A DNA stretch of 64,000 nucleotides from Styela clava (taxonomy: Eukaryota), in NCBI RefSeq assembly GCF_964204865.1, contig NC_135261.1:16244001-16308000 (forward strand), in the 5' to 3' direction. Positions 10,685-42,834 of this stretch are shown here, piece after piece; the first letter of the stretch is position 1, and every line of letters starts with the position of its first letter. Under the pieces are notes generated by a model. That model ran no database searches. It was not told the origin of the DNA and saw only the letters and a list, made by a program, of their open reading frames with translations. The translations under genes were made by a program, and so were the position numbers.

Positions 10685-13600
10685 TTAGATGATGAAAGCA
10701 GTGCTAATATGATGCAGTCCGTTTTGTGGCAAAATTTCTGTCCACGGGTATGTCTGAATTTCAACATCGTATGGGTTTCCATCCAAATCTTCCAGAGAAA
10801 TTTTGCACCTGCGTTCAAATTATAATGAGTTTGACACGGAGGATATTGCTTGTAATATATGATGTTCTAATAATTTCAGGGGCATTTTTTACGGTATGTT
10901 CAAATAGATGAAAATCCCCGAATAAATATACCGCTATAAAAAAGAAAAACGGTAAATAAATTGTCGCATATTATGCTAGGTAGAGTTAAATTGAAAAGAT
11001 CACCAATTTAGGTAATCACGAAACTTTGAGCTGAATGACATGACCAAAAATACCTTATGCCTGGTCTCGTTAGAAAGCATAATGTGTAAACGCAAAATTC
11101 CCATTCCGGACTTGTCCCGACAAACATCGATGATATAGGCTTACGATGTCCTTCCCAAACAAATTGTATTTTCTGTCTTCCAGACTAAAAATAAGTTTTC
11201 GTTTGTTCGAAAACTGCTAGATTACAACGAATAACAGTATAGCTATAGGAATGAAATCTACGTCATGCAACGCTTTATTAGAATTTCTACTTTATAGTAC
11301 TAAGTAAGTACCAAGAACTAGTCGTATATCAGAGTTTTAACTTTTGTATAACAACTATTTTGTGTGAGTTACACAACTTCCAAATACCAAAAAAAAGTTT
11401 GCTCGAGTCAAGCTAGAATCAAGGGTGTTAGCGATATTTAAGAAGATTTATCGAAATTACCTCAAAGTTATCTTCTGGTTTATCCAAATGACCTCTATAA
11501 TCAATTTCCCCGTCTTTCTCGAGAAGATAATATCTCACCCAGTTATGGAAACCGGTTGTCTTATTATCATAATGTTCCCCAATAAAGATATGCTCAAACC
11601 TAAAAAAATTAGCATTGAATTGAAAATACAGATGATTCCATTTCATATTAAATTGTAGGGCACATCCACAAGTAGGGTATTTGGAAAATAACGAACAAAC
11701 ATACACAATTCAGCACAGCTTGATAGAACATATAGCATTAAATATTGAAAAGTGTCCCACTGTCCGCAACGTGCATAGAATTCAACTGATTTATTCAATT
11801 AAAATGCTCAAAAGTTCATTATCTGTTGCCTACGTGGTTGCAAATTTACACGATCTGTTTTCACTAAAAATTCACAGGCTTTGTTGATCGAGTACAAAAA
11901 AGAAAGAATACACACCCACTTGAGTCCATAGCTCCTTCTTTCCCTGAAAAACTTGCGAACCATATCTGTCGTAATATTTTCTTGAAATCACTTGTTCTGC
12001 CACATCCCGATAAACCTCGGAAATAGAAACATAATCATTGTATGATTTGCAGTATGCGTTTCTTTCCCCGATAAGTTGCTAAAGTAAGTGGGAATACTCA
12101 AACGAATCGTTGAGAACTTGAAAACTTTTATAGATCGCATTTGAGGTTTAAACTTAATGCAGAATAAAAAGTAACATTGTTGTTAAAATCACTGGATTTC
12201 GTTGTGATTTCAAAATGGCGAGATACTCTCGTTATCTTCACAAATGCAAATGAAGAGTTAACTTTCGACTGTTATTTTCAAAACAATCCTAGGATAATTT
12301 CACAATTGTTATTATTAACGATTTCGTTCTATTATCAGTATTTATATTACCATTGCCTGTCTCCCAGTTACGATGCAAGATGTGCAAAAATATTTGAGCG
12401 CGATTCGGGTAAGATTATCGTAAAAGACAATCTCGATTTACAAGCTTTCAATTTTTATTATGCCAGTTTTTGAAGTTAACAACTATGAATGATTGATTCC
12501 ATTTGTTATTAAATGGCCCACGACAACACGCTTGATTTGCAGGAAAGCTACATAAGCTGTGTACTCAATATAAAGTAACAAATTACTTAGTAACTCTACA
12601 TCATATCCATAAATCGCAGACACTATAAGTAATAACAAACTGATATCTTATCAACTTGTTAATCAGAATCCGTGCATAAAATACGTAGGCTACGTTTCAT
12701 CCCGATTAACAACAAATACTACGGTGGTGGCGACAGGATATCATGAAAAAATTACAAAATGCATGTAAAGATTACAGTTACAGTACAGTTCTGTAACAAT
12801 TTTAGAGAAATTCTTTGGCAGGCGATAACATTCATGAGTTTTTCAGTAACAGATAGTCTTCAATTAACCGAATATGATCAAATCAATACTTACCATGTTT
12901 AACTAAAAATTGCCGAAGAGCTTTTCCAACTGGCGTACTCAAAACATAGTTGATGAAAGCATTTTGTTCTTTCTTCTTGTTCTTTGTGAAAGTTTCATTT
13001 ATTCCTAATGCTTTTTCATAATTGTCAAATAAAGCGATGAGTTTTTGGAATGATTCCAATTGCAGAATTGATTCATTGACGTAGGTAAATAATCTGTGTA
13101 CAAAATTGAAAATTTACTTTACTTATTCATTCTAATATAGACCTATGAATATATTTTTATATCTGAATAATAAAATTTCGATATAACTGAAAACTCTAAG
13201 ACTTGACAAGTTAAAATTTCAGTTTCAATGGGTATTGGCAACTTTAAGAGGTGATCTCGTTACGGTTATTGCGCTAGTAAAACGCTTTCATATTATAACT
13301 TCTTATTATAAGAAATTTTGTATTGCTCCATATATTTCAAAACTAAATGTATAGAAACACGACTAATTACATTAAATAGCTGATTCTGTAACGGCATTGA
13401 AAATGTGGCAATAAATTATCCTAAACTATTCTCATAATATAATATTCATCAATATATTTATTAATGCCGCAAATTTCTATATCAATGAAATATATCCACC
13501 TCTCCTATTTCAATCAAGTTTTGGAAGCGGTGATCCCACCTTACCAACCCAATTTCAAGCACTCTTGTATATACCGAACTTTCTAATTGCAAGATCGACC

Positions 13601-15675
13601 ATGTTTTAATTCAACAGTTTTATTACTTACTTTCCGTCAGCTTTATCCACAGTGTTTCGCGGCGTTGTGAGTCCTTGTTTATTGAAAGTAAAATCCGTAG
13701 ATCGGGATTTAAATGTGTTTTCTTTCCAAAGTCGTTTGGAAAATTTAAATATCTCCAAGTTTGTCACTGAAATAAAATGTGTTTTTTCATGTTTATGAAT
13801 GTACCCAAAAGAATGTGAAGACCAAAAATGATTGAGTTATAACCTATGAAGTACTAGGCTATATATTTATGAAGGATGATTCGAAATTTGTACTGATCCA
13901 AACACCTTGTTTCACATTGATGATAAAGCCGTATTTGTTTCCGGATACAGAAAGTCTGGAAATTAAATTTGAAAAATGTTTGTTGAAAACTTCTACTTCA
14001 AGGATGCGCAAAACGGCGCAAATAGGTCCAACAATGCCTTTTTTAATTTTCATCTCAATAGCCTTTAGTCCTATAGTAGGAGTGACTTGTGCTCGTAGTA
14101 ATGCCCAAGCGATTCAAAGGGATCTTATAGACGTGGCACGCACTCGCGTATGTTTCTGAAAATGAAAACTTGTTCACAGAAAAGCGCAACAGAGCAGTAG
14201 GTTATATTTTCGTTAAAATGTGACCAATTCATTCATCAGAGAACACTAGTATATTACAAATTAAAATTCGAACCAGGTATCATTTTAGTTATGCAGATTT
14301 GCTACACGCTGTAAGAAAGAGAAGTAGTCATCCGTCTTATAAACATAAGCATTATTGCTTCTTACCACAACTCCCATTTGTAAATGCGCATTTCTGACAT
14401 CTTTCTTTGTCTGGCAAATATATTTGACATTTTTCAGCGCACATGGTATTTAAATAGGTGAGAGATTTCAGTACTATATAAATAAAAATATTTTGTTTTG
14501 CTCCGTTCAATATCTTGAAATGAAATGAAACGAATGCTCATATATACATTGTCTTAAATAGGGGTGAGTAATCTTTAATACAAGAGGGCCAGATATAAAT
14601 AACCGAGTGAATCTGCGGGCCACACCTTTATTTCACATGGGCTTTCTAGTAGTTGCAACCACAATAATGTTGGTTATTGATCATATGGCATCCTTTGTTC
14701 GCACAAGCTAACTGTAAAAGTATTGTGGATTCATAGGCATAGATAAATTGGACTCAGGTATAGGCTTCGCAACGCAAATGGAGTGGTATCACTAGATTAT
14801 ACCCAGATTAAACTAAACATAGGGATAGATGATAAATTGGAGATTGGATGACTCGCACGTACCTATTTAAATTTAATTGGAAACTCGTATCGCTGGTCGC
14901 ACATCATTCGAAATAGGCACATCTCCGCGGGCCGCATAAATTTTCCTCGGGGGCGCGTTTGGCCCGCGGCCGCAGGTTGCACACCCCTAGTCTAAAACGT
15001 TTTTGGTCTAACAAGAATGATAGTATTTGTTGTAATTGTTGAGATTAAATGGATTTGTTGCAAAAACTAGTATAAGCTATGGCGCACTTGTTTATCAAAT
15101 ATTAGTTAATTTTCTAAGTTCAACTAGAGCTAACATCAAGAAGATTTTATAGAGCACACAATAGTCATAAAAATGCTTACATAGGTTGACACATTTCCAA
15201 GAAAACATCATTCCCATGGCAACAATCATCATATGCTATACATTGTCTATTGCAATGACAAGAAAATTTTTCGTCGATTTCTTCAAAACATCTGCCTTCA
15301 CAGCTAAAAGACTCTGTGTTATTTCCATCTAAGAAGGTTTCAATGTTAAGACAGGCAAAAATTTGTATTATTATTTTTTGCGTATATTTGATACTGTGTT
15401 TTATTTTCAAACGCATTTAACATCAATTTACAAAATGGGACCGCTTTTGATATTGAGCTTAATATTGACCAGATAAACTTATTCCAAACTTGTGATGACT
15501 TACATAGCGAGCATTTTTATTTGGACATTTACTTGCCTTCTCTTTCCATAAGTCAAGCATTCTTACAGTTGTAAAAAATATTACACATACCTTGACAATT
15601 GCCTTGCCCAACGAATGCACAAATCAGGAACACGCAAATCAACACAACACTATTCCTAAAATATATCCCGGTCAT
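10685..15675 (-). CDS. ENDOU: EndoU-family endoribonuclease paralog A (signal peptide + SMB + Cys-rich module + EndoU), 9 exons, 379 aa; one non-canonical splice acceptor
   Basis: Exons 15675-15591, 15328-15181, 14442-14366, 13766-13631, 13093-12894, 12015-11916, 11599-11461, 11184-11054, 10808-10685 (1140 nt, no internal stops). Motifs: hydrophobic N-terminus MTGIYFRNSVVLICVFLICAFVGQGNC, SMB CEGRC..CHCNRQC..DCC..C, LFDNYE, SGFEHIFIGE, GFHNW, WEGHRK, GTSPEWE. The exon-3 acceptor reads AT instead of AG (14443-14444). Confidence 0.88.
14559..14989. mobile_element. hAT-type MITE in EndoU-A intron 2
   Basis: Ends TAGGGGTG...CACCCCTA; GCGGGCC subterminal motifs; 8-bp TSD GTCTTAAA/GTCTAAAA (1 mismatch). 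Confidence 0.75.
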
Positions 15676-15985
15676 TATTTCTTCAAGAGATGCTTAAAGA
15701 TTTTATAAACTTATCATAATCATACTTCATAAATTAAGAGATTGTATATAGTTACTTTACGTATCATGCAACATATAGCCGCCTGGGGGCGTAACAGTCA
15801 AAAACATTAAATTGAAGTATAAATATAAAACAACTGGCGCGTGGAATGTTTTGCAATCATAAATATCAAAGTGATGATACAAAGAGATTTATATTTATTT
15901 TTAAAGAAAGAGTAAAATGTTTCTATTCAGCAGAGATTCTTTAGCCGTTTCATAATTTTTAATGATATTCACGGACCACCGACAC

Positions 15986-17640
15986 CAGCGTTTCTCAACC
16001 TTTTTCGGTCGCGGACTATTTTCTCACTGGCGAAAACCTTTGAGGACTCAACGTGAGTTTATTGCAACCGTACTCTGTGTGAAGAAGTAATAAAACCAAA
16101 CACAACAGAATTTTACCGAATTTCAAAATCGGAAATGCTACGCAATTACGCCTTTGTTAAAAGGGCCGACTTCTTTAGTGTATAAATGGCCTTTTCTGTC
16201 GCACAATATTCAATCCTTGACAATGACAATAATTTAAAATGTGTTCTTATTTTAATTTAATTGTGTTCATGGTCACTCGCGGTTGCGTTGACTTATGACA
16301 AGGTAAAAGCATTACTTCTTTTAAATGCCACGGCAATCTGCGAACATAATAATGTGAGAATATATTGACCGGTTATATTTAGTTTTGATATAAATTATTT
16401 GCGATCTTGCGAATTTGTTATCGCCGTTGGTCAACTTGATTTAGTGCTTATTAAAAATATAATTAGTATATTAGTAAATAAAAATAAAAAATATTTATCA
16501 CCTTGTATTAATATTAATTTAATTGTGATCATTTCAATCTGCGGTTGTGTTGACGAAATAAAAGCAATACTATTCCGAAAATATCATGACAATCCGTGGA
16601 CCCAAAAATGCGTGGTAAAGTGCCCGATTATATTTTGTTTTGATTCGTATTTTTGTGAATTCGACAAATCTGAGCTGTTCGTACAACAGCAAAGCCAGAA
16701 GTCGACAACATTTTGTCGCTCGCAGGTCAAAATTAAAGGTTGCAAGTCATTGTTTGGCCGCGCATATTATTGGAAAGTTAAAAGCCGGACGTATGGCCAA
16801 TGAATCACATTTTTTCACACAGATCAGAAGTTAAATTTTAAGCAGTGCCCGAAGACTGACCATTTAAATATTGAACCAATTGCACTTAGCGTTCAATTTT
16901 TCTGCGTTTTGTTGCCATTGAATGCCTAATTATAATTAATTTATAGGCTCATTCAACGAGTAATTGTGAATTATATACTTGATCGGTTATGATATAATTT
17001 AGTCTAAACGTGCCGCAAAATAAATTCTGTCACGTAAAGAATATAATCGTAAAAACAGCTGTTTTGTTACTATAATTCAGAGAAGCGTCGCGGGCCTGAT
17101 TATATTGCTCCGTGGGCCGTAGGTTGTGGATCCAGCAGTAAAGCAGGGAAATGCCCTGATACGAATACTAAGGTAGCACCCGAAATTTTGCATTTGCAAT
17201 GTCTAAAAAAGCGTATTTAAGAAACTTAGGGTGTTTCCAGTTTTATTTTCAGTATTTTGTATTGCCGCTTTTCAATTTAGAAAATTTAGGTTGCCACCAT
17301 TGACACCTACCAGAAAAATTATTCCTTGAACAACAACGACTAAATCCAATCGTTTAATTAAACGACGCGCAAGTGAACTGTCGCGTCACCTGTTACCAAA
17401 TTTTCGAATAATAAATTGCTATTCTAATACTTGAATATTCGAATATGTGCCAAGCCCTACTCATTCAGTATCCATAAATTATTGACTCGATTAATTTTAT
17501 ATGAATAAACTTGCTTTTTATGTTTTGTGTAAATACTAACGTAAATCGTGGCTGATGGTTGGGTTTCGCAAAAACGTTTGCGGCCCGCAGTGAATTTCTG
17601 GCTCGTTGCGGACTCATTCAAACGCTCCGCGGACTCACTT
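15986..17640. mobile_element. Nested or degraded hAT-like MITE remnants
   Basis: hAT-like start CAGCGTTTCTCAACC at 15986; end-like motifs GCGGGCC..GGCCGTAGGTTG near 17090-17136 and GCGGAC repeats near 17608-17640; internal direct repeat near 16255/16515. Boundaries uncertain. Confidence 0.4.
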
Positions 17641-17709
17641 GACCTACACAATACTTAAACCTATTTAGGAGACTGAACGACGACTATAGAAAGTAAAGTT
17701 TAATATATT

Positions 17710-19330
17710 AATATATACACTCTTCATCCCACAAGTTGAGTTGTTGGGAACAAAATGTTGCATTTATGTGCATTCCGTTCCTGAAAATGTCTTATTTCGA
17801 CAAAATTGACATAGGCGAAAAACGTGAAATTTAACAACTTTCGAACTACAACAGCATGTTTATCCGATTAAGAGGGGCGAGATATTATTAATGATAATTA
17901 TTTTAGTATATACACTCCTCATTCCACAAGTTGAGCTGTTGGGAACAAAATCTTGCATTTATGTTTAAACCGTTACTGAATATCGTCACGCTAATAACCG
18001 AATTGCGTAAGTCATTTTTGGCGATTTTGAGTTTTTTTTTTATAAATTAGGTATTTATGTGATACTGCGCACCTGTCTGTTAACTCAGATTTTATTTTAA
18101 GAATTCCGAAAACCATAAAAATGGAGATTTAATATAACATGCAAATTTGTTTCATTATTTCGTCATAATGAATTATCATTGTTACCGCAGGACTATTGTG
18201 ACGTCACGAACGCAAAATAACCACTGCGAAGTATTTTCGAGTTTTTGCATCTCGGATTCTAGCTTAGCGCGTATTAATTTGAATTTATACTACAGTATAG
18301 GAAGGCATACACTTGTGATATTCACTGTCCGAGTCCAATACACCTTGGTTGGCTTTTATATTGGGTGCATTGCTGTTTTATTCTTTATATTTAATCTTAG
18401 TCTTATTTCGGTTGGTGTGCAGATCGTGTTATATTGATGAAATATATATTTTTAAGCATAAAAAATAATGTAATTGAAACTGATTATCTATTTTGGGGAT
18501 TTAACATTGTAGATACTGAGAATTACATTCGTTTTTGAAATGTTTAGTTTTCAGGACTGGTGCATTTAGTAAAGTTGCAAAATTGCGTATGTCCCCAAGT
18601 CATAGACACATTTCTGCCTAAGTCACAGTGCGCCATTATGACGTCACTTAACTGTGTCATACAAATTAACTTGAATCCGGTCAAAAAATTGAACCATGGC
18701 AAATTATTGTCTCTCAATGGCGTAACAATATCATTAGGAAATTTTTTACGTTTTACTCAAAACTGCTAAAAATGACTTACGCAATTCGGTTATTAGCGTG
18801 ACGATATTGTCCTATTTTGTCAAATCGACAATACTGTAGGCGAAAAAACGTACAATTTTACAACTTTCAAACTATAATAGCATGTCTATTCGATTGAGAG
18901 AGGCGCAATTTTATTATTGAAAAATTTAATAGTATATATGTTGTACATCATACGAGTTGAAGTGTTGGAAACAAAATTTAGCAGTTATGTGTAATCCTAT
19001 ACTGAATATGCCCTAATTCGTAAAAATCGACATAGGCGAAAAACGTAAAATTACAAAACATTCAAATTACAACAGCATTTCTATTCGATTAAGAGGGGCG
19101 AGATTTTATTATTCATCTCACAGGTTGAGTTGTTGGAAACAAAATTTTGCATTTTATGGGTATTCCGTTATACTGAATATGCCCTATTTCGTCAAAACCG
19201 ACATAGTCGGAAAACGTGAAATTTCACAACTTTCAATTTACAACAGCATGTCTAAACGATTAAGGGGCGAGATTTTTCATTATTGACAAATAATATAATA
19301 ACACAAGTTGAGATGTTGGGAACAAAATTC
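17710..19330. repeat. Tandem array of ~195-bp diverged units (about 4.5 copies), interrupted by a TIR element
   Basis: Recurring AGTTGAG..GTTGG.AACAAAA..GCATTTATG..GACATAGGCGAAAAACGT..AGCATGT.TAT.CGATTAAGAGGGGCGAGAT near 17730, 17925, 18950, 19120 and (partial) 19300. Confidence 0.85.
17984..18803. mobile_element. Non-autonomous DNA element with ~36-bp TIRs (copy 1)
   Basis: TIR CGTCACGCTAATAACCGAATTGCGTAAGTCATTTTT at both ends, flanked by ATAT on both sides; second copy inverted at 43781-44570. Confidence 0.88.
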
Positions 19331-20998
19331 ATTATTGAAATATCAGAATTATGTAACAAATTTAACGGTGGCGCCTGATTCTCATCAAATAATAAACTTC
19401 TCATTGATGATATGTGCATGACTGGTGTGAGCAAAATGCATTTTTTAATTGCCACTCTTTTCGTTATCAACCACAATAACAAAATAAATAAATAAAATTT
19501 TGATACGACGAAATAAAAAGGTTGGTTGTATCCGCCGAACTGGCGAAATTCAGTAGTCAGTTAAAATGGTCCAACAGAGACATCTAGCGACAGAAACGTA
19601 ATTCATAAATTCACTCGTTGACGTTGATTATTCCCGCATTCGTCATTGGAACAAGTGCAGTTTCAAGTATTTCGTGGAGTCTAGAGCAGCCGCAAAACCA
19701 TGGCGGGATTTCCAAACCATGGCCGCTATGACCAAACCCACGGCGACTGATTTTTTTAGCTGCCACAAACCAATAGCGAGCTGCCGTGGTTACCCTGGTC
19801 ACCCTGATGGTGATAAATATAGGGTAAGTTGGAACACTTTTCTTATGAATACAATTTTGATGTATTTGGGGTTATGTTTAGGTTTAAGTAGATATAATTC
19901 CGCATGATAGACTAAAATATTGTACATGACTTTGTAAATATACCGGTAATAGCGCCATAAAACCATGGCAAGAGACGCCACGGTCACATACAATTGTCAT
20001 CGTGTTGATAAAATTCCACAAACTCTATCAACTCAGATGCTAGCAGGAGCTTAGGAATCAAATTTATGTTTAAGATATTATGTTGCGCTGTCACACTTTT
20101 GTTTGCCTATCTTCTGGACTATATTTATATTACTTTTGTTATCGTGTATTTGTTTTTTTATTTTGGTGGAATACAACACTCGTACTTGCTTTTTGATTTT
20201 TCTTGTGGTCAACCTAAGTGTCTCTTGTCGAATACGCCCCCGAGGCGCCTGTTAAAATGAATTCAAATACACATGATAATCTAGAAGTGTTACTTTGCAC
20301 GTATGTTTTAAATTACATTATATATATAGTTAAAAACTTCTTATTTAGATGTGCAGTAATAATATTCGTGTTAAGTTGGGTTGTAGTCTTTTGTCGATGA
20401 AAATAGAACGAATCTCAATCCGGTTTACGATTTGTTATTTCGCAATTGAACTCGGCCTGAAACAAAAATTGATTTCAAATATAATGATCTTGAGTTGTTG
20501 AAGTACCGAAGTAATGAGGTGTTGATGAAACTTTATTACATAGCAGCTGTAGCCTATATGACAACTCGTGAACACATAGAGTGGCAAATTGTGATGGATG
20601 CGTTCTAATGTTCAAAAACATGGTTTTAATCCGTTAAACAAATAATTTCTTGAGTGTTTGAACCGGATTCGTGTCAGAACCTCTTTGCATAAACACGCCA
20701 AAAAAGTACAAAAACTGATTATTAAAAATAGTCATACAGTAATAGTGGAGTGCAAGAAATTAATAGATTTGAAAATTTAAGTTATCAAAGGAATAGAATA
20801 AAGGAAATTAAAGAAGTGTTTGTTTTGTATTTAATTAAACTACCTTTATTGTGAGTTAATTTACGTTCTAATTTCAATCTACCATGTGTTCCTTCGAAAT
20901 AGATTTAAAAACCATTCATTTCGCAGAAAAATTATTAGCCAGTAGGATTCCAAGAAGCTACTTTAAATTATTCTTTATTGTTTCAGTGAATAAGGTTG

Positions 20999-23900
20999 AT
21001 GGCGTATATTATGAATAGCTTCGTACAGATTTTCATCTTCTTGATTTGTAGTTTCGTTGGGCAAGTCATTTGTCAAGGTATGTGTAACATATTACGAATT
21101 CGTTCTATGAGAGAAATATATAATTTAGGGCGTTGAAGATTGAACAACATATATTGCATAATAATGAACTCCGTTCACCACATCTTGATCTCATGATGAG
21201 TTCTTTTGCGTGATATACGGTCTATCTACAACCAATATCATATTTATATGTACCTAACTCAATATACAAATACAATCATTCAAGTTATGTATCGTACAGC
21301 AAATCGACTTCATGTAATAAATGTATGACTGTGTGTCTGATCTATATGTGATTGGCTGTGTGCGTACTGTTGACTAAACCACGTTTCCAATCCTATTGCT
21401 TATTTTTTGTCAACGTCTATATATATGACTGCATTTTTTTTTATCTTGCCGTGATTCCAGGTGGAAGCGTTACAGATTTGGTGGGTTGCGAAGGTAGATG
21501 TTTTAGCAGATACAACAGTTCGTTTCCATGTCAATGCACTAAACGATGCATAGCGCACGAAGATTGTTGTGTCGGAAATAATGGTTACCTTAAAACATGT
21601 CAACCTATGTAAGTGAAATTAGGAAAATATATTAGTTTCTATAAGTTAGATTTCCAAGTCCAAATATAGAGTCTCTTGCCATGTTTTTATGGTAAGATAA
21701 ATAAATTGCAAAGATGGACTGACATCTATTGTTGTGTCGAAAGCTTCAACTATATTTAAATTTTTGGAATGAGCATTTGTTCAGTTTTGACTTATGGATT
21801 ATGACCGTGCTGATGGAGAAAACTGGAATTTTTTGCATTTATAACTTTAATCCGACACGACTATTGGATATGAAGTTGACCTATAGATTATTTTGTTATT
21901 AATGTGTTGTTGTTATAAGGCTATTACCAAAATTTGTTTTTCTTTAGATTTCATATTTGTTCCTCTTCGTGTCCATATACTTAGCATTTCTCCTTTGTTT
22001 CAGGTGCGCTGAAAAATGTCAAATTTATTTGCCGGACAAAGAAAAATGTCAAAAGTGCGCATTTACTAATGGGAGTTGTGGTAAGACGGCATATTGCGAT
22101 AATATATATTACATACAATGAAAAATGAGAATAGATATGTGCAAAAAACAAAGAAGTGGGAATATAAAGCCAATCGATAAGATCGGCAGATTGAGGCAAA
22201 GTGGGCTTATGCTGTGCTTCAGTCGTTCCTACTCACATTACCTATAATGAAACTTATTTTATTTCAGTGACAAACAAAGAGATATTTGAATTTTCTAAAC
22301 GATTGTGGAAAGAAAATACATTTAAACCTCGATCTACGGATTTTGTTATAAATAAACAAGGTTTTACAACTGACAAAAACACGACAGATAAAGCTGATGA
22401 AAAGTAAGTTGTAATCGTTGAATGATAACATAATATATATATATATAAATTCTGTACCAATTTCAGTGTTTTAAGCTTATTATTAGCTATAGGGTCAGAA
22501 GTAAACAAAATGAAATCAAAGTTGGTTTTTAATTACTATATTGTGATTTCTTTCTCGTTGATTGTATATGACTGCGATGTTTTCCTTCAACACTTTAACT
22601 TTCTTCTAGTTTCAAGTTCAGATCGTGTACATTGTACAGCATTGCTCTAAATATATTTCTTAATTAGCCCATTCAAGTAGCCAAAAGATACATTAATTGT
22701 TTAAAACGCTTGAAGCAATTTCTATTTAAAGTTATTCGTTATGTTGTTGTGTATTCTTATTTATTCCCATTCATTCACATCATTTGAGAACAAATTGAGT
22801 CTTTTATTAAAAGTGCTCATAAGCGTGTACATTTGAAAAAAATAGGAAACTTATCAAAAATACTCAAATTAAAACATCATTTATCAATATCAAAATTTTG
22901 CGTTAAAATCTGTGAATAATGTGTGGCCATGTGCGTGCATGATTCAAAATTTTTACCCGATTTTATTTGGATTTTCTAAAGTCCAAATAGGTATAATAAG
23001 TGTTTGGAAATGCAAACTAATAAAATCTGGTCAGCCATATAGAGGTATAGATGACCTTCGTGTTGAATGATAAGAAACAAGAATAAACTTCCCTAACGAA
23101 AATACAATCACATCTAATCATGCTAACCTTTGCCCTTTACTTTAGTCATTGTCTTTTTGGGGGTCTGATTGATTATTATGAATTTATCGAAAAACATTTT
23201 TAACTTTCAACAGATTATTCACCTATGTAGATGAATCCATTCTGCAACTAGAGTCATTTCAAAAACTCATTGCTTTGTTTGACAATTATGAAAAATCATT
23301 AGGAATAGATGAATCCTTCATAAACAACAAGAAGAAGGAACAAAATGATTTCATCAACTTTGTTCTGAGAACGCCAGTTGGAAAAGCTCTACGACAATTT
23401 TTATTCAAACATGGTAAGTTTTAGAATAATTATGAAATAAAGGATGATGATTGCTTTCAGGACACGAAATGTACATTTAGATCGTTTTGTATTATGTTGT
23501 TGTTGTTAGTCATTCTTATCTTCTTATGGTTTTGAAAAAAAATGATTTATTCATCAATTACCGGACCAATTGCTTTAAAATTTTCAGTGGTCAAAGATTG
23601 TATTACATTTATTCATTTCAAAAAGTTCTGTGGGTCTATGAAAATTGTTATGTGCGCGATAACCTCATCACGCTTGATTGATTGAGATTTTATCAAATAT
23701 GATTGAATAACCAGATTTAAACTTTTGATAATTCAGTATGACATAACCAATGCCATCCGACTTGCTTAAACGTGACCACACAAACTACAACCCAGTGTAC
23801 TTAAATAGTTGGTTTTTAATTTACCACAGGCTTGTCAGGATGTGGCAGGACAAGCGATTTTAAAAATATTTTACGAAAAATTTGGTTTGAAAATTTTTCA

Positions 23901-26900
23901 AGAAAAAAAGGAGCTATGGATACGAGTGGGTACGTAGTTCGTAAGCTACTGAGTATTTTTACAGACTTTGAGATGAGACTGTAAATGGATTTCCAATTAC
24001 TTTAGCATGATAAAAATCGCATTTTCTTCAAATAATTTTGACTTGAATTTATCAAAAGTGTAACCAATATAATGCTCGCTCAACCAATCATCTTGTTAGC
24101 GAGTTTTCTATTCAGAACGGCAACAATTATTTTTAGGTTTGAACACGTTTTTCTTGGAGAACATTATAATAATAAAACAAGCGGTTTCCATAACTGGGTG
24201 AGATATTATCTTCTCGAGAAAGACGAGAAAATTAACTATATGGGCCACTTGGATACACCGGAAGACAACTTTGCGGTGAGAAATTAAGTTGTTCTGAGAT
24301 TCCGTTTTTTATATTGTTTTCCTTCTGGCTATGAAGGCTCGTTTTTTTTTGGCAAAAACATGAATTAAGATATATGAATGACATAGAAAATTAGGTTTCC
24401 GTACCGTAACTATCTTTTTTATATCGAAAGTTATAGATATAATATGATAGGATTTACATATTTATCTCGGCGGAGAGGAAAGCCGATAAGGCGGCTTAAT
24501 CACATGGCAAACCACGGCCTCTCGTCCGGTTACCAGTCCATGTCGGGTATAGGATTAGTTAGCCCGGTATTTGTTTTCAGAAGCATGGACTTGGTGGTAG
24601 AGGAAGCCGTAAATAATGTTAAATGAGACAGCAGTTGACAATGTTAACTTCATTGCCTATTTTAAACACATTTATCAATAAAAAATCCTCTAAAGGTTGC
24701 ACTATTAGAGTATAAATCATATCTCGTGAGAAGGTTTTCACAATGTCCATCAAAATTCAAACTTCATTGACCAGCTGCTGATGTAGACATTTAAAGCTCT
24801 TGGAATTGAATCGTTTGTCATTTGTATCTATTACTTCCATTTAAAAATACGAAAAGTTTAGGAATTTACTTCAAGGCTCTGTTAAAAATATTGCACTTAC
24901 CACTTGTCGCACTTTTACAATTCAAATATTTAAAAAAATCATAAATTTGCAAAGCAACCTGAATGTTTAATATTTATGTTATTAGTTTCAATCCAGCCAT
25001 CTTACAAACATTTATCTATGGGAAATTTTTTCACAGCCTGGAAGGCAACGATTGCAGTTTGTCTGGGAAGGACATCGCAAGCGTTTAACGTCATTCATTG
25101 TTGGGACTACTCCAGAATGGGAATTTAGCGTTATCACTTTATGCTACTTGACGAGGCCCGGCATGAGGTAGATTCTAATAATAGTAGTCAGCTCAAAGTA
25201 TTTTAGAAAGGAAAGAATAAACATATGCTAAATAAAAAAAATACTCAAGGATCTGTCCAATTTTATTACAAACACATTTTACAATTTTGTTATTTATTTA
25301 TTTAATTTCCAATTCGTCTCACGTTTGTGTAACAGTATACAGCCGTAGAATTTAATGAACTTTAGCTCACTGTTTCAGCAAGATTCACCTTCTCAAAGAA
25401 TACATATTACATTCGCCCATGCCATGGCATAGGATCTCAATTCCTAAGGGACAATACGTCTCAACTGAATATGTATCGCAACTCAGTGACACATGCCATT
25501 GATGATGCGTAGACAAATGTATTGCCAAAATCTCATTGCTCTATACAAGGACAACCGAAACAAGTATTAAATTATAGACCTATATCGATTCTCTCAGTTC
25601 TTCGAACAGAAGTATTCGAACGCACAAGAGATTAATGAAATTTTTTGTGAAGCACGATGTAATGAATAAATCACAGTTTCGCTTTCAAAGCAAACATTCC
25701 CGATCACATGCAATTTTAGATACGGTATCCCATAATATTAATAATAAATTGGAAGAGGAAGAAAGAATATTTTAGTGCAACATTTTTGGACTTTACAAAA
25801 GTCTTCGATACTGTCAATCACAAAATCCTAATTTAGAATCCGTGGCATTATGGTATTGGTGCGGTAACAAATCAACTCCTCATCAACTATGTATACTATA
25901 AGACTGATAGATTCCAATATGTTCAATCTTGTACATATTGCTCATATTCTTTGCTTGTAACCCACAAGGTTCTTGTTTATGAACCTCATTATTTTTAATC
26001 CTAATTAATGATCTTGCTCGTAGCTCCACATTATTTTCAAAATTGTTAAATAGAAAAATAGAAAATTGGATGGAACTTAACAAACTGACATTAAATGTTA
26101 ATAAATCAAAAACTATGCTGATAACTCCCAATAAGTACAAACATAAAGACTGTCTGAATATTCATATGAGGGGTAGAATTCTCGAAAATTCTCATTCGTT
26201 CAAATATCTTGGCATCCATATCGATAATAAAATGCACTGGGACATTCATATAAATAGCATCGTTGTTAAATTATCGAAGTCGGATGGAATGCCTTATAAG
26301 CGTCGGCGGTACACATCCATATTAATTTTACGTATGGTTACTTTGCCTAGTTGCAGACCCATATTCTGTATGGTATTGCAGCTTGGGGTTCAGCAAACAA
26401 CCCTTATTGCATCTAATTGAAATTATTCAAAACCAGGGTATTCGTGCTATTACTGATGCGGGACCTCGGCCAAATCAGAAAATATAATTGGTGAAAATTA
26501 AAGATATTTATAAAATTGAGGTAATGAAAATTATGCACCAGCATCATAATAAAGAGTTGTCTGTTGCACTGACTTGTTATTTTGTGAAACGAATGCAATT
26601 CACTCATATGCAACTCGGCTATTTTCCAATAAGCTCCCATTATGTGACTTGCTATTCTTCGAATTGTACTTGAAATTCCATGAAGTTCATTCAACTTTGG
26701 AATATGCTCTCTTTTGCAATTCGTTCCAAGAACTATATTTTATTTAAACAAGTATTGAAATGTTTTTTTTTATCTCGATGCTAATATTTCTCAGTGAAAA
26801 TCTAGTTGATAATTCTGCTTTCAACCTTGCTCTAACACTCGTCTAAAATGTATTCATGTATTGCTTTACCAACCCCAAACTTGGATTAACTGTTGCGGTT

Positions 26901-27583
26901 GCTGGGAATTTTTTCTCAGCTATCTCGGCTTTGCAGCCTCATGCTTGACAACAATTTCATTATTGTGATTGCGCTCACTCGAGCACGACGTTGCGAGACA
27001 AAACTGACATATCTTTTCACTTCACACTTCTTTTCTGACAGACTCGATTTGATGGATATTTTTACATTTAAATATTTCTCTCCTGACTTACTCTCTCGAT
27101 GCGATTTATATTTCCCATTTATACATTTCTCTCTCGATTCAATTTACGTTTCCCAAATTTCTTTCATCCAACATGACATGTTTAATTAACAACTAGTTGA
27201 ATTATTTGACGTTTTTGACATCTTCTGCTGAACTTGCTTCTGCAATTATGGTGTCGCTGACACGATGACTTGATAGTCTTTCGCGGCTCCTCGTCAATTG
27301 CAGTCGAAGCATTGTGTGTGTTTTTTTGGGACTCGATTTATTAGTATTTTTGTTTACAATGTTTCATGTATGACGAAAATAAAATATCTGAATATCAGTT
27401 GAACGACAATGCCTAACAGTTATATGTTCTCCGTCTATCACATTATTTTTTGTACTTAGGTGTAAAGTCTCATTAGAAGACTTGAATGGAAGCCCATACG
27501 ATGTCGAAATTCAGACATACACATGGAGCAGAACCGCACATCAAAATGGGCTGCGTTATATCGGTACTGCTTACGTGTTATGA
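20999..27583 (+). CDS. ENDOU: EndoU-family endoribonuclease paralog B (signal peptide + SMB + Cys-rich module + EndoU), 9 exons, 377 aa
   Basis: GT-AG exons 20999-21077, 21461-21608, 22004-22080, 22268-22403, 23214-23413, 23830-23929, 24137-24275, 25037-25167, 27460-27583 (1134 nt, open). Catalytic His-His-Lys motifs FEHVFLGE, GFHNW, GHRK; C-terminal YIGTAY. Exons 2-9 have the same lengths as in paralog A. Confidence 0.93.
24446..24590 (-). mobile_element. SINE family, 3' portion
   Basis: Reverse complement matches the copies at 40105-40245 and 41100-41405 (GACATGGACTGGTAAC.GGACGAGAGGCCGTGG..CTTATCGGCTTTCCTCTC..ATAAATATGTAAATCCTATC). Confidence 0.75.
25430..26790 (+). mobile_element. Degraded non-LTR retrotransposon (CR1/L2-like) reverse transcriptase fragment in the last intron of EndoU-B
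   Basis: Frameshifted RT motifs in order: YRPISIL, QFRFQ, FLD..KVFDTVNH, PQGS..LF..LIND, NKLTLNVNKSKTM, FKYLGI.ID. Confidence 0.85.
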
Positions 27584-37813: not shown

Positions 37814-40800
37814 ATGCAGCCTAATAACTATGTATCACCACCCAGTTCTGTATATTCATATCCTGGGTCATCTCACACTGGCCGAAGTTTGAAAAGTTCA
37901 CATAGTCAGGGATCTATAAATGATTATTCTTATACAATGGAAGATGTGCAATTCTCTGGAGTTGGTCGTAAAGCATGGTAAGTAAGAATACAACGGGCTT
38001 CGTGTAGTTTCGAACCAAAATAATTTCTAGTGGGGGTGGTGTAACAATTTTGCATATTCATATGTCATTTCTAACCACCACCTGACTACGTCATCTAAAA
38101 ATCAATTTGTGAAATTTAAATTGTGCCCCCACACTTAACAAAAAAATTAATCAAATTCTGTTCAAGTTCCAAACCCTGCTAACACGCTTAAAAACAGTGT
38201 AAAACCGTCAAAAAACACCAATATTTATGAGCAGTAAGTCTTTTAGTGGAACCTTTGTGTTTTGTTTGACTTGTCCAATCTTGAATTTACTTCTCAAAAT
38301 CACAAGTTTCAACATAAAATATTCTGAAGTTAAGACTTAATTAATGTTATAAAATATAATTTCCTTTGTGGTAAAATTTTCAGTAACTACCTGTTAAATA
38401 ATAAGTAATATTATATTATCTCTTGTTTATATGTTTGCTATTTCTAGTACCGGTATATCTCTGTGAAATAGGACATATTTTATTACCAGAGACTTTCAAT
38501 GACCTTTATTCCCTCAATAGTTGTTGTTTTTGTGCGTCTAATGTAATAGAATTTATTGGAAACTGAACCTAATTGTTTATTTTCTGGTATTTTTGCACAT
38601 TCATTGTGAATTCTGCTATAAAAAATATCCACTGATACAGAAAGAGCTCCCAATTTCGAACGGATGGGAATCTTTTTGGTTTGACAATTGCCTATCCAAT
38701 CCAAATGGATGAGTTGAAGGACATAGGAATTGTCCAATGGATTTCAATCTCATTCTAACATATTTGGGTTCGACCACCCACTGTTAGTTGTAGTTGGGTC
38801 ATTGGAAGTAGGTAGACAAATGGATATAAAATTTAACCTTTCAAAATATGTAATTTTATTTTAAGTGCAACTGGCATGGAAAAGTGTAAGAAATACATGA
38901 GACGAATATTCAAATTTCGACAAATGGATTTTGAATTTGCACTCTGGCAAATGTTGAATCTGTTCATTGCTCCTCATAAAGTGTAAGTTATTATGCTCAG
39001 AGAACTAGGAACTATATATATATATGAAATCAACAATATATGTTTACTTTGAGTTTATCCTGCTGTTGATTTAAAACACTTTATAAAGATTTCCTTTGCG
39101 ATAAAGTGCTTTGTTTCATATTGCATGAAATATCTTGAATATTCGGTACGATTCAGCCTGGCGGACTGTCTGATACTGCTACAAGATTCATTAGATGTGT
39201 TTCTTATCTATTGTTGTTTTGTCACATTCTTATACACAATATCTTTTCATCACAGATACAGAAACTTCCAATACAGAAAACGTAAGTATTTTTAGTTTCA
39301 GAAAGTTATTGATTCAAAGGAGACATTCTGAATTTTTTTAATTTTCATTTTTTCATTTGTCATTTTTAATAAGCTAGTAGAGATAATAGAGATGGCTGAC
39401 ACCGGTACGTAGTATGTGTACCAGGTTTGGGTTAGGAATAATAATTTAAAAAAAATAAATTTAAAATATAATAATTTTATTCCAATTTTCCTTATTTTAG
39501 TTCTAATAGGTATAGGCTACTTATTTTTATTAAATTCTCAAAACAGCTTGGTACAAGGCAAGATTCAAGTAAATCCACCATTTTTATCATTCTAGCGTTT
39601 TTGAATTTATCTGTGGTTGCTTGATAATATAACAGTGCTATACATTGAACATTTAGTATGAGTCCTCATTATACTGGTTTTTATGCAATTTATTTTGCCA
39701 TTCTGACATACATTAATAAATTTAGCTTCTGATATCAAAACTGTTCATGTATAAGTAATTAACCTATTATAATTAACACTATAATTAATTGATATTTGCT
39801 TGTAAGGTTTGTGCATTGACAATGTATGTTTATCACATCATGTTGTTATTGTTTATACGAAATAGAAATGTATTTTACTTTGATCAGATGTCGTGTTTGT
39901 TTAGTTTGTGTTAATAAATCATGCTTGTTAAAATGAGACGCATACCTTCCATATCGAAATGAAGCTCTTTATATTTTAGAAACAAAAAATCAGTTTGCAA
40001 GAGATGATCCTGCTTTTTTAGTTCTGATGAGCATTGCGTTTTGTGGTAAGATGATAGGTTATATATCTCTCTCTTATTAAGGGCCACTGCTATTAGGGCT
40101 TGGCAGTGTGGCGCATCTGAAAACAAATGACTGGCTAACTAATCCCATACCCGACACAGACTGGTAACTGGACGAGAGGCCGTGGTTTGCTATATAATTA
40201 AGGCGTCTTTCCTCTCTCCTGGGATAAATATGGAAATCCTGATCTGACCATACTATTTTGATCATTGCTTGTTATATTGCTATCGGTTATACTGTTTACT
40301 ATTGCTTGGATTGATTTTTTTCATTCATTTCTAGTTACTTCTATCGGATTCGGACTTACTATGGGACTATCTTGGTTCAAGATATTCAAGCTTCTGTTGT
40401 GGGTTGTTTTCATAGACTGTATTGCTGTTGGAATACTTATTGCTACTGCTATGTGGTAAGTGTGACATTGTTGTCTTGGGGGATGAGGTGGCCATTATTT
40501 CTTTCTTCCTGCTATTTACTGTACAACAGTCTGAAAATAAGATTATGCTGCATTGTCCCGTAAAATTCACTCATAAGTCATAACAGAGAAAATCTTTTGT
40601 TGGGACCTTTGAGAATCCGGAAGCTACATAGATATTTTCCTTAATTACAATCGACCGAAAAGCAATATTTTCACAATAGTATACCAGGAGAGGCTTGATT
40701 TTAAATTACACATCTGATGCTAATTCCATCCATCAAAATAATTGATGATACTACTGTAACTAATTTTAAATGTGTGTTCAATTCATACTATATGGAAATA

Positions 40801-42834
40801 GTAGTTTCTGATAAGGATAAGTCTCTGTTGAACTCTGATGATCATTTTGATCATTTTTATGTTGCAGTTACAACTGAGAATATAAATCCTGCTTATTTGT
40901 TGAGAATAGGTTATGCTTTGACCCTCTAAACATTATACACTGTTTCGATTAATTCTGAGAATTACATATTTAATTCAGATTACAAACTTTGGTCTTTCAC
41001 CAATAATAATTTATATTAAGCAATGCTCAATTATATGAACCCATAGGTGTGGTGACTAGTAATATAGCCATTGCAGTTTCAACGAAAATGCAGCCAAATA
41101 TTTAATGAATTTTATCGATGAGCGATGAGTGTTAGTAATATGCTCGCCACCTCATCTCTGTGTGGGCTCGCGGGTTCGAATCACATTCGGAGATAATCAT
41201 GTGCGAGGTGATTGCTGGACTACTCGTCGCCGTAGGGTCCACCATGAAATCCATGCATCTGAAAACAAATAATTGGCTAACTATTTCCATAGCCGACATG
41301 GACTGGTAACTGGACGAGAAGACGTGGTGTGCCATATGATTAAGCCTTCTTATCGGCTTTTCTCTCTACCTAGGTTAAATATGTACAGTAAATCCCATCC
41401 TAATCAGCAAATTTGGGGTGAAATAGCAAAAATAGAACTTTTCTTCTTTTGGTATTGAAAATTCGTTGGATTCGTAGAATATCGATTTCTGCACAACATG
41501 AAATAAAACAGCCATTAGTAAATATATTCATTGGTCCTTTTTCATTCAGTAATACTTCCATTGTCAATAACAGGTTAATCAGCAATAAATATCTTGTTCG
41601 GTACATCAAGGGGGGTGCTGATGTTGAGTGGGCTTATGCATTTGATGTTCACTTGAATGCCTTCTTTCCTGTGTTGATGATTTTACATTGCCTGCAATTG
41701 TTTTTCATAAATCGTGAGTTGATTTTATCTACCATGTTTTTGAATTCTTTCCCGGTATATAGGTAATACAACTATTCTCAGTAGGTTAAAATTTGTGACA
41801 GGAATTTTAGCTCAACATTTTGAAAAACTTGATAAAATTTGTGCATATTATAGTGTTGTGAATATTTTGTAATTGCTCTGTACAGCTGTTTGATATATTC
41901 ATTGCATCGATAAATATTCATAGTTGTATTGTCATCCTTGCCTCCCTTTTATTTCATGTTTCACACCCAATTTCCCTTGTATTATAATGATTGAAGATTG
42001 AGATTGGTTTGGAAATAATAGGCCCCAATACTAACAACATCTTGTTAGACCTCCCAACTTAGATCCTTTGTTTATTTTGAAAATGAATTGATCAAGGAAT
42101 AAATTTTTTGTAATTGTATTTTGTATACCGTATATTTAAACATTTTGAATATTTTTCTGATTAGCTCTTATTGTGAAGGATTGGTTTCTTTCTGTATTGG
42201 TGGGAAATACATTCTGGCTTGCAGCACTCGGATATTATGTTTATATCACTTTTTTGGGATATAATGGTGAGTATTTCGTTTATCTAAAAACTGAAAACAT
42301 TACTTTAGGAACGCCCTGCGTATTTTGAATATTATTGAAATATCATTTTGAATGACATTTTCCTTCGGATTTTTCGTCAAATTCTGGAGGCGTAACAATC
42401 TTATTTTAATTGGCATACATTTCTGATCATGGCTATATCCAGATTAATCCCATTGTAAATGGTACTCTCGTAGTGTGTGTAACAGATTAGGGTTAGGCCA
42501 TAATTTTATTCCGATTTTCCTTATTTTATCTCTATTATGAGTTCGGAGACTGTCTGTGTTAGCCAAGTGTATAGCCCTGCCCATAGGTTTCAGCCCTTTA
42601 CAAAACTTGATGTAAAGTAGGCTAAAAAATTGGTTACCTCCATATTGGTACACACACTTCTGGAGCGCCTTGTAAACTGCTTAGTTACTTGTTTTTTCAG
42701 TTCTACCATTCGTGAAGAAAAGCATTGTCCTGCTTTCTCCATTACTCTTACTGGGAACAACTTATTTCATATCGCTTATCACTCGATGGAACATCACTAA
42801 AGCATTACTCTGGTTCTATGAGAACAGGGTGTGA
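37814..42834 (+). CDS. UNC50: Protein unc-50 homolog (Golgi/inner nuclear membrane protein), 8 exons, 289 aa
   Basis: Exons 37814-37977, 38866-38982, 39256-39281, 39980-40045, 40335-40455, 41574-41713, 42165-42266, 42701-42834 (870 nt, open). Diagnostic sequences FRQMDFEFALWQM..VYRNFQYRKQTKNQFARDDPAFLV, DVEWAYAFDVHLNAFFP, YYVYITFLGY. Confidence 0.96.
40105..40245 (+). mobile_element. SINE family, 3' portion (UNC50 intron 4)
   Basis: Matches the body of the 41100-41405 copy. Confidence 0.7.
41100..41405 (+). mobile_element. tRNA-derived SINE, longest copy (UNC50 intron 5)
   Basis: Pol III B-box GGTTCGAATC at 41173-41182; body shared with other copies; ATCC-type repeat tail. 5' boundary approximate. 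Confidence 0.72.
42461..42669. mobile_element. Merlin-like MITE (UNC50 intron 7)
   Basis: Ends GGTACTC...GGAGCGCC; TSD TTGTAAAT/TTGTAAAC; same family as 32389-32628. Confidence 0.72.

What the first reader, a model, noticed from the sequence alone, without database searches (positions are those of the whole stretch)
10685..27583. Head-to-head pair of predicted secreted SMB-EndoU ribonucleases with asymmetric divergence
Seen: two paralogs in divergent orientation, start codons 5.3 kb apart, with matching exon structure. Both have a hydrophobic leader, one SMB domain, several N-glycosylation sequons and intact His-His-Lys motifs. Established: vertebrate ENDOU/PP11 also combines a signal peptide, SMB domains and EndoU, and the catalytic fold is shared with XendoU and nidoviral Nsp15. 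Inference: a co-regulated pair of extracellular or lumenal RNases that has subfunctionalised, for example in mucosal or antiviral defence or RNA digestion. This is my best candidate for an undescribed system in this window.
Basis: partly seen in the sequence, partly recalled or inferred. Interest (0 to 1): 0.7.

Follow-up and report, generated by a model that had tools for sequence, protein, structure and literature searches.

The report
Duplicated sea-squirt EndoU RNase gene pair
Two back-to-back copies of a well-known animal RNA-cutting enzyme gene (EndoU) in a sea squirt are both spliced and keep their catalytic residues; they are likely an ordinary lineage-specific duplication, and one copy has lost an almost invariant arginine and carries an unusual splice site.

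Summary
The pair is real: two nine-exon genes (379 and 377 aa, 73% identical) in divergent orientation, ATGs 5.3 kb apart, each leader + one SMB domain + EndoU domain. Both already carry RefSeq names as Styela clava uridylate-specific endoribonucleases. Spliced joints of both genes occur in four runs of one study; dN/dS is 0.18. The His-His-Lys triad, calcium-site acids and uridine-binding serine of human ENDOU are kept in both. Overall rates are symmetric (branches 0.13 and 0.11). The real asymmetries are SMB charge, an acidic core and Gly240 in copy A (Arg or Lys in 252 of 256 triad-intact homologues), and a GT..AT second intron in A. A five-cysteine linker marks a three-gene Styela subfamily whose third member lacks the triad. 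Co-regulation and a defence role are not shown; the spacer holds a high-copy repeat. Verdict: new, uncharacterised members of a known family; modest interest.

The parts
10685..15675 (-). Gene A coding span, 379 aa (P0002). Exons 15675-15591, 15328-15181, 14442-14366, 13766-13631, 13093-12894, 12015-11916, 11599-11461, 11184-11054, 10808-10685
   Evidence: spliced joints
20999..27583 (+). Gene B coding span, 377 aa (P0001). Exons 20999-21077, 21461-21608, 22004-22080, 22268-22403, 23214-23413, 23830-23929, 24137-24275, 25037-25167, 27460-27583
   Evidence: all 8 joints in run X6
15591..15675 (-). A exon 1: hydrophobic leader, predicted signal peptide
   Evidence: hydropathy; helix 8-22 in the model; no SignalP run
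20999..21077 (+). B exon 1: hydrophobic leader, predicted signal peptide
   Evidence: hydropathy
15181..15328 (-). A exon 2: SMB domain, 8 Cys, acidic (3 K/R, 9 D/E)
21461..21608 (+). B exon 2: SMB domain, 8 Cys, slightly basic (5 K/R, 3 D/E)
14443..15180 (-). A intron 2, non-canonical GT..AT; B has AG at the aligned place; 0 of 5 AG dinucleotides in the 120 bases upstream are in frame
   Evidence: same letters in the contig of run X1
14366..14442 (-). A exon 3: five-cysteine linker (C-x3-C-x9-C-x2-C-x6-C), 96% identical in protein to B exon 3
   Evidence: no Pfam match; pLDDT under 50
22004..22080 (+). B exon 3: five-cysteine linker
11942..11944 (-). Codon for Gly240 of A, at a column that is Arg in 246 and Lys in 6 of 256 triad-intact EndoU domains (human R273 by the alignment); B has Arg (23901-23903)
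10685..13766 (-). A exons 4-9: EndoU (XendoU, PF09412) domain with triad and calcium-site residues; core net charge -9
22268..27583 (+). B exons 4-9: EndoU domain with triad and calcium-site residues; core net charge +1
15676..20998 (.). 5.3 kb spacer between the ATGs; holds copies of a roughly 195-base repeat (17623-18032, 18755-19337) found at 365 or more places in the genome

Best explanation
The two genes are an inverted local duplicate of an ascidian EndoU gene, both spliced and conserved, and each likely encodes a secretory-pathway, calcium-activated, uridylate-directed ribonuclease that would work like human ENDOU. Mechanism, by transfer from the human enzyme (inferred): the leader sends the protein into the ER; calcium bound at sites 1 and 3 (A: E182/E251 and D144/D282) orders E257, which locks H252; H252, H267 and K310 cut single-stranded RNA, with S314 reading uridine. 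Copy B is predicted to be the conventional enzyme. Copy A, which lacks the conserved Arg and has an acidic core and SMB, is predicted to be a weaker or differently targeted nuclease. The copies were probably kept through this tuning or through expression differences, not as an obligate co-regulated module. History: an older duplication split the conventional three-SMB gene (G000:C3) from a derived subfamily with a five-cysteine linker; that subfamily gave a triad-less copy (G000:C1) and the A/B pair.
For: Shown: matching exon structure, 73% identity, dS 0.86, dN/dS 0.18. Spliced joints of both genes in 4 of 4 runs laid, one study. Pfam XendoU E 1e-80 level for both. Model of A matches calcium-activated human EndoU, 9ftw, E 8e-31, rmsd 2.4 A. 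Residues named essential or uridine-binding in PMC11275989 and PMC11961692 (D179, E217, E284, H285, E290, H300, K343, S347) align to identical residues in A and B. Tree of 47 domains: A+B 98/90, A+B+C1 100/99. Linker motif in 4 of 293 collected proteins, all Styela. Leader-SMB-EndoU in vertebrates, amphioxus, Clavelina and the C3 paralog. Gly240 unique among 256; A core charge -9, with 6 of 247 at or below, B +1 at the median.
Against: No activity, localisation or tissue data. Secretion rests on hydropathy and homology; human and Xenopus EndoU are reported as cytoplasmic or ER-associated (PMC11275989). The role of the Arg at 240 is not covered in the papers I could read (0 hits for R273); that it binds RNA phosphate is recalled from XendoU work (R149) that was not held. 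The conventional C3 paralog is also acidic (-7), so acidity alone need not mean weaker activity. The GT..AT intron could make A non-functional in this animal. The tree is unrooted, C1 is a long branch (1.48), and few tunicate species were sampled.
Confidence: 0.72

Rival explanations
1. Copy A is a decaying duplicate, or the animal behind this window is homozygous for a splice-null allele of A.
For: A intron 2 ends in AT, no upstream AG is in frame (0 of 5), and skipping exon 3 gives a stop after 85 residues. A has lost a 97% conserved Arg. The acceptor letters in the animals behind runs X5-X8 are unknown.
Against: A has no stop or frameshift, its branch is no longer than B's (0.13 against 0.11), relative-rate tests with 9 of 9 outgroups are not significant, and A-type exon 3 is spliced to exon 4 in 4 of 4 runs. 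RefSeq lists the full 379 aa protein under two accessions.
Confidence: 0.12
2. The pair is a co-regulated secreted RNase module for mucosal or antiviral defence or RNA digestion, driven from a shared bidirectional region.
For: Divergent orientation; both spliced in the same four runs; ascidians are outside the reported range of RNase A (vertebrates only, PMC7297114), so secreted EndoUs could fill that role; SMB exon dN/dS is higher than the catalytic domain's (0.34 against 0.15, Fisher p 0.007).
Against: 5.3 kb spacer with a high-copy repeat and no alignable upstream sequence; an inverted duplication gives this layout without any shared control; dN/dS stays below 1 in every exon; no defence-type Pfam family among 107 neighbouring frames scanned; no paper found that links these genes to immunity.
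Confidence: 0.1
3. A's exons 1-2 are joined to B's exons 3-9, by trans-splicing or by an inversion between the near-identical linker exons, so SMB domains are swapped between catalytic domains.
For: One contig of run X7 runs from A exons 1-2 (0 differences) into exons 3-4 with 5 and 14 differences from A and then into B-like sequence. B exons 1-2 were seen in only 1 of 4 runs. A's own exon 3 acceptor is non-canonical.
Against: A and B share 32 bases across this junction (11 + 21), enough for a short-word assembly graph to cross over (word length 31 is recalled); A-type exons 3-4 are spliced in the same run; X6 shows the normal B exon 1-2-3-4 path; X1 shows A exon 3 in its normal flanks; contig holes prove nothing by the tool's own note.
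Confidence: 0.04

Closest known systems
Human ENDOU / PP11 (PDB 9ftw; PMC11961692)
   Same: Leader + SMB + XendoU domain; triad, calcium sites 1 and 3, relay Glu and uridine Ser kept; fold rmsd 2.4 A, 38% identity.
   Different: One SMB rather than two; extra five-cysteine linker; A has Gly at human R273; B has Asn at D315, a change the paper calls semi-conservative and which is the majority state here (156 of 256).
Conventional tunicate SMB-EndoU (Styela C3 gene P0020, Ciona savignyi P0127, Clavelina P0289, Ciona intestinalis P0133)
   Same: Same domain order where an SMB is present (3 of 4 carry one); the C3 gene has the same intron phases as A and B through the catalytic domain.
   Different: 34-42% identity to B; they form their own branch (98/89) and lack the five-cysteine linker.
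Xenopus XendoU (PDB 2c1w)
   Same: Same fold and triad.
   Different: 292 aa chain that matches only the catalytic domain; reported as cytoplasmic and ER-associated.
C. elegans ENDU-2 and Drosophila CG2145/Arlr
   Same: Invertebrate EndoUs reported as secreted and taken up by other tissues (PMC11275989 passage; PMC7904951 listing); paralog pairs with different N-termini are known in Drosophila (PMC5282483).
   Different: No SMB is described for CG2145 in the legend read; not a tandem pair of this architecture.
Nidoviral Nsp15 (NendoU)
   Same: Shared catalytic core only (Foldseek E 2e-3 or weaker).
   Different: 10-14% identity; lacks the eukaryotic calcium sites. The likeness gives no support to an antiviral role.

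Membership tests
Eukaryotic EndoU (PF09412) | XendoU domain above the Pfam cut-off | tested here: met
   273 and 268 bits against 32.3
Eukaryotic EndoU (PF09412) | His-His-Lys triad | tested here: met
   H252/H267/K310 in A, same columns in B
Eukaryotic EndoU (PF09412) | Calcium sites 1 and 3 and relay Glu (human E217, E284, D179, D315, E290) | tested here: met
   All identical in A; B differs only by D315 to Asn
Eukaryotic EndoU (PF09412) | Uridine-binding Ser (human S347) | tested here: met
   S314 in A, Ser in B
Eukaryotic EndoU (PF09412) | EndoU fold | tested here: met
   Model of A against 9ftw: E 8e-31, TM 0.92 on the target; B was not folded
Eukaryotic EndoU (PF09412) | Near-invariant Arg before the DSSGFEH motif (conserved, not formally defining) | tested here: not met
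   Gly in A, Arg in B; R or K in 252 of 256
Eukaryotic EndoU (PF09412) | Calcium-dependent uridylate-specific cleavage | not testable with these tools
   needs an enzyme assay
Chordate SMB-EndoU (ENDOU/PP11 type) | One or more 8-Cys SMB domains before the catalytic domain | tested here: met
   B is just under the Pfam cut-off on the full protein
Chordate SMB-EndoU (ENDOU/PP11 type) | Cleavable signal peptide and secretion | tested here: inconclusive
   hydrophobic leader, sequons and even cysteine count in B fit; no predictor or proteomics
Chordate SMB-EndoU (ENDOU/PP11 type) | One-to-one orthology with vertebrate ENDOU | tested here: not met
   four copies in this genome; A and B group with C1 apart from vertebrates and from the conventional tunicate branch: co-orthologues at best
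Bidirectional-promoter gene pair | Close, shared promoter with correlated expression | tested here: inconclusive
   5.3 kb repeat-bearing spacer; start sites and levels cannot be read from contigs

The most novel reading that the evidence does not exclude
Styela carries a private EndoU subfamily, marked by a five-cysteine linker, that has split into an active basic enzyme (B), an attenuated acidic enzyme made through a non-canonical GT..AT intron (A) and a dead pseudo-enzyme (C1); together they form a graded extracellular RNase system in a chordate without RNase A. At the extreme, A's SMB exons are trans-spliced or inverted onto B's catalytic exons (about 0.04).
Probability: 0.12. Interest if true: 0.55.

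Novelty: new member of a known kind. Interest (0 to 1): 0.25.

Why it matters
As it stands it is an ordinary duplication in a known family. Its use is as a natural experiment: two 73% identical EndoUs, one lacking an almost invariant arginine, and a triad-less third copy, would test what that arginine and the SMB domain do in animal EndoUs, which the papers read leave open. A GT..AT intron, if shown to be spliced in animals that carry it, would be a rare U2-type exception in an ascidian. If the enzymes prove secreted and inducible, they would bear on what served as extracellular RNase before vertebrate RNase A.

Tried and rejected
Rate asymmetry: relative-rate counts with 9 outgroups, chi-square at most 1.8; branches 0.13 and 0.11: rejected. 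Tyr-to-Phe at the C-terminal motif of A as a sign of decay: Phe occurs in 77 of 269 domains: ordinary. Positive selection on the SMB: dN/dS 0.34; non-Cys identity 11 of 30 against 15-20 of 27 in 7 vertebrate pairs, but an amphioxus paralog pair is as low (12 of 33): fast, not exceptional. Gene conversion over exons 3-5: synonymous differences are not uneven across 8 exons (p 0.18). Linker as a half SMB: spacing resembles the first four SMB cysteines, but Pfam finds no second stretch at E up to 5, the model is under 50 pLDDT there and the Atlas gave no usable hit: unresolved. Assembly error at the AT acceptor: the X1 contig has the same letters and no second allele; X1 may be the window's own sample, so it says nothing on other animals. 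X10 reads laid poorly (0 of 28 at 99% or more) and did not cover the site; a metagenome pattern scan found 0 matches. Closer orthologues in other species: none above 42% among the best 150 of 1604 hits; a search of shorter proteins gave 4 distant hits. Literature: searches gave 0 papers; no listed paper dealt with ascidian EndoU; the one supplement file of PMC9953650 had 0 hits. Earlier scan notes: 0. No complex prediction was run, as no binding is claimed.
Full report
Observation. I rebuilt both genes from splice contexts. Gene A lies on the minus strand (ATG 15675, stop 10685, 379 aa) and gene B on the plus strand (ATG 20999, stop 27583, 377 aa), with 5323 bases between the ATGs. Each has nine exons, intron phases agree at all eight positions, and eight of nine exon lengths are equal. 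The models equal P0002 and P0001 letter for letter, which RefSeq names uridylate-specific endoribonuclease-like and D-like of Styela clava. Exon 1 is a hydrophobic leader, exon 2 an eight-cysteine SMB, exon 3 a five-cysteine linker, and exons 4-9 the XendoU domain. A has five sequons and B six.

Both copies are spliced and conserved. Contigs of four runs from one study (X5-X8; RNA status is the tool's guess) skip the predicted introns. Six of A's eight joints are listed in all four runs. All eight of B's are listed in X6, six in X5 and X7, and five in X8; 70 further joints were not shown. X1 shows none of the three A joints in the stretch laid. Over the mature region dS is 0.86, dN 0.15 and dN/dS 0.18 (Nei-Gojobori). 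Contig depth was not used to compare levels.

Enzyme anatomy. The AlphaFold model of A (pLDDT 82.7, 47-sequence alignment) matches calcium-activated human EndoU (9ftw, E 8e-31, rmsd 2.4 A) best, then XendoU, and Nsp15 only weakly. I counted human residue numbers on the alignment and took their roles from PMC11275989 (first part of the text and passages) and PMC11961692 (passages and Discussion). Triad H285/H300/K343, relay E290, calcium ligands E217, E284 and D179, and uridine-binding S347 are identical in A and B. D315 is Asp in A and Asn in B, the majority state (156 of 256). Both are therefore predicted to be calcium-activated, uridylate-directed RNases. This step is inference from homology.

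What is asymmetric. Overall rate is not: relative-rate counts against nine outgroups are all non-significant and the branches are 0.13 and 0.11. By domain, the SMB exon is 47% identical, the linker 96% and the catalytic exons 64-85%. The SMB has more amino-acid change than the catalytic domain (dN/dS 0.34 against 0.15, p 0.007 on rounded counts), but an amphioxus paralog pair shows as low an SMB identity. By chemistry, A's SMB is acidic and B's slightly basic. A's catalytic core has net charge -9 (6 of 247 homologues at or below) against +1 for B, the median; the C3 paralog is -7. A has Gly240 where 246 of 256 triad-intact domains have Arg and 6 have Lys; these 256 come from 269 domain cuts out of 289 collected proteins. 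That this Arg contacts RNA phosphate is recalled from XendoU work that was not held; the papers read do not mention it.

The odd intron. A's intron 2 begins GT and ends AT; B has AG at the aligned place. None of five AGs in the 120 bases upstream is in frame, and skipping exon 3 gives an early stop. The X1 contig over 14125-14603 has no other letters, so this is not a consensus error, though X1 may be the window's own sample. A-type exon 3 is spliced to exon 4 in all four runs, and RefSeq lists the full protein under two accessions. The acceptor letters in those animals are unknown. A working non-canonical intron is the likelier reading, and a null allele remains possible. PMC4176328 (passages) mentions GT-AT for U12 introns; this donor is of the ordinary type. 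PMC13326754 (passages) concerns larvaceans and gave nothing on Styela.

Family context. The genome has four EndoU loci: A, B, a conventional gene on C3 with three SMBs and an intact triad (P0020), and a gene on C1 (P0138) whose triad reads Asn/Asn/Thr. A, B and C1 share the linker motif, found in 4 of 293 collected proteins, all Styela. In a tree of 47 of the 269 domains (26 named, 21 unnamed, chosen by me) A+B has support 98/90 and A+B+C1 100/99, beside a branch with C3, Ciona and Clavelina (98/89); the branch uniting all tunicate rows is 90/92 and drawn open, and the tree is unrooted. No protein from another species exceeded 42% identity. Leader-SMB-EndoU is common in vertebrates and amphioxus and present in Clavelina; PMC11961692 states that animal EndoUs often have signal peptides and sometimes SMB domains.

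Head-to-head layout. The two upstream regions align only through exon 1. The spacer holds copies of a roughly 195-base repeat with at least 365 matches in the genome. An inverted local duplication explains the layout without shared control. Among 107 of 138 neighbouring open frames scanned, Pfam found only UNC-50 and a hAT fragment.

A chimeric contig. One X7 contig joins A exons 1-2 to B-type exons 3-4, and B exons 1-2 appear only in X6. The genes share 32 bases across this junction, which would let a short-word assembler cross over, and X6 shows the normal B path. I treat it as an artefact but could not test it on raw reads.

Print. Searches for EndoU with Styela clava or Ciona returned no paper; none of the papers listed dealt with ascidian EndoU; one supplement file of PMC9953650 had no hit. 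PMC5282483 (section 4 and passages) shows that EndoU paralog pairs with different N-termini are known. PMC7297114 (passages) places RNase A in vertebrates only. PMC7904951 was seen as a listing only. Subscription papers were not searched.

Verdict. Real, annotated, uncharacterised members of a known family. Most likely both are secretory-pathway calcium-activated RNases, with A tuned down or retargeted (0.72). Decay or a null allele of A: 0.12. Co-regulated defence module: 0.10. Exon swap: 0.04. Interest 0.25.

Noticed in passing
G000:C1:10086000-10096100, minus (L004, L005; protein P0138): Third member of the linker subfamily: leader, SMB, five-cysteine linker, EndoU domain with the triad replaced by Asn/Asn/Thr while calcium-site acids are kept; a likely pseudo-RNase. 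A short duplicated piece of its exon 5 lies just upstream of the true exon (L004 6398-6324).
   Followed up: partly
G000:C3:14930200-14934900, plus (L006, L007; protein P0020): Conventional EndoU with three SMB domains and intact triad; groups with Ciona and Clavelina proteins.
   Followed up: yes
window 14366-15328 against 22004-22403 (run X7): Contig joining A exons 1-2 to B-type exons 3-4; B exons 1-2 seen in only 1 of 4 runs. Probably an assembly crossover at 32 shared bases; not tested on raw reads.
   Followed up: partly
window 25983-26417, plus: Reverse-transcriptase fragment (Pfam RVT_1, E 0.003) in B's long last intron; likely a decayed non-LTR element.
   Followed up: no
window 17623-19337: Roughly 195-base repeat that forms long tandem arrays elsewhere in the genome (for example C10 16.47-16.51 Mb and C16 15.02 Mb).
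   Followed up: partly
window 40262-40456 and 41422-41763, plus: UNC-50 family gene; two frames match overlapping profile positions (58-101 and 57-147), which may be a duplicated exon.
   Followed up: no
window 44784-45143, minus: hAT transposase dimerisation-domain fragment.
   Followed up: no
window 13836-14159: Stretch in A intron 3, absent from the shorter B intron, with open frames of 107 and 84 codons and no Pfam match; a second, 7-difference version is present in run X1. Possibly an inserted element fragment.
   Followed up: no
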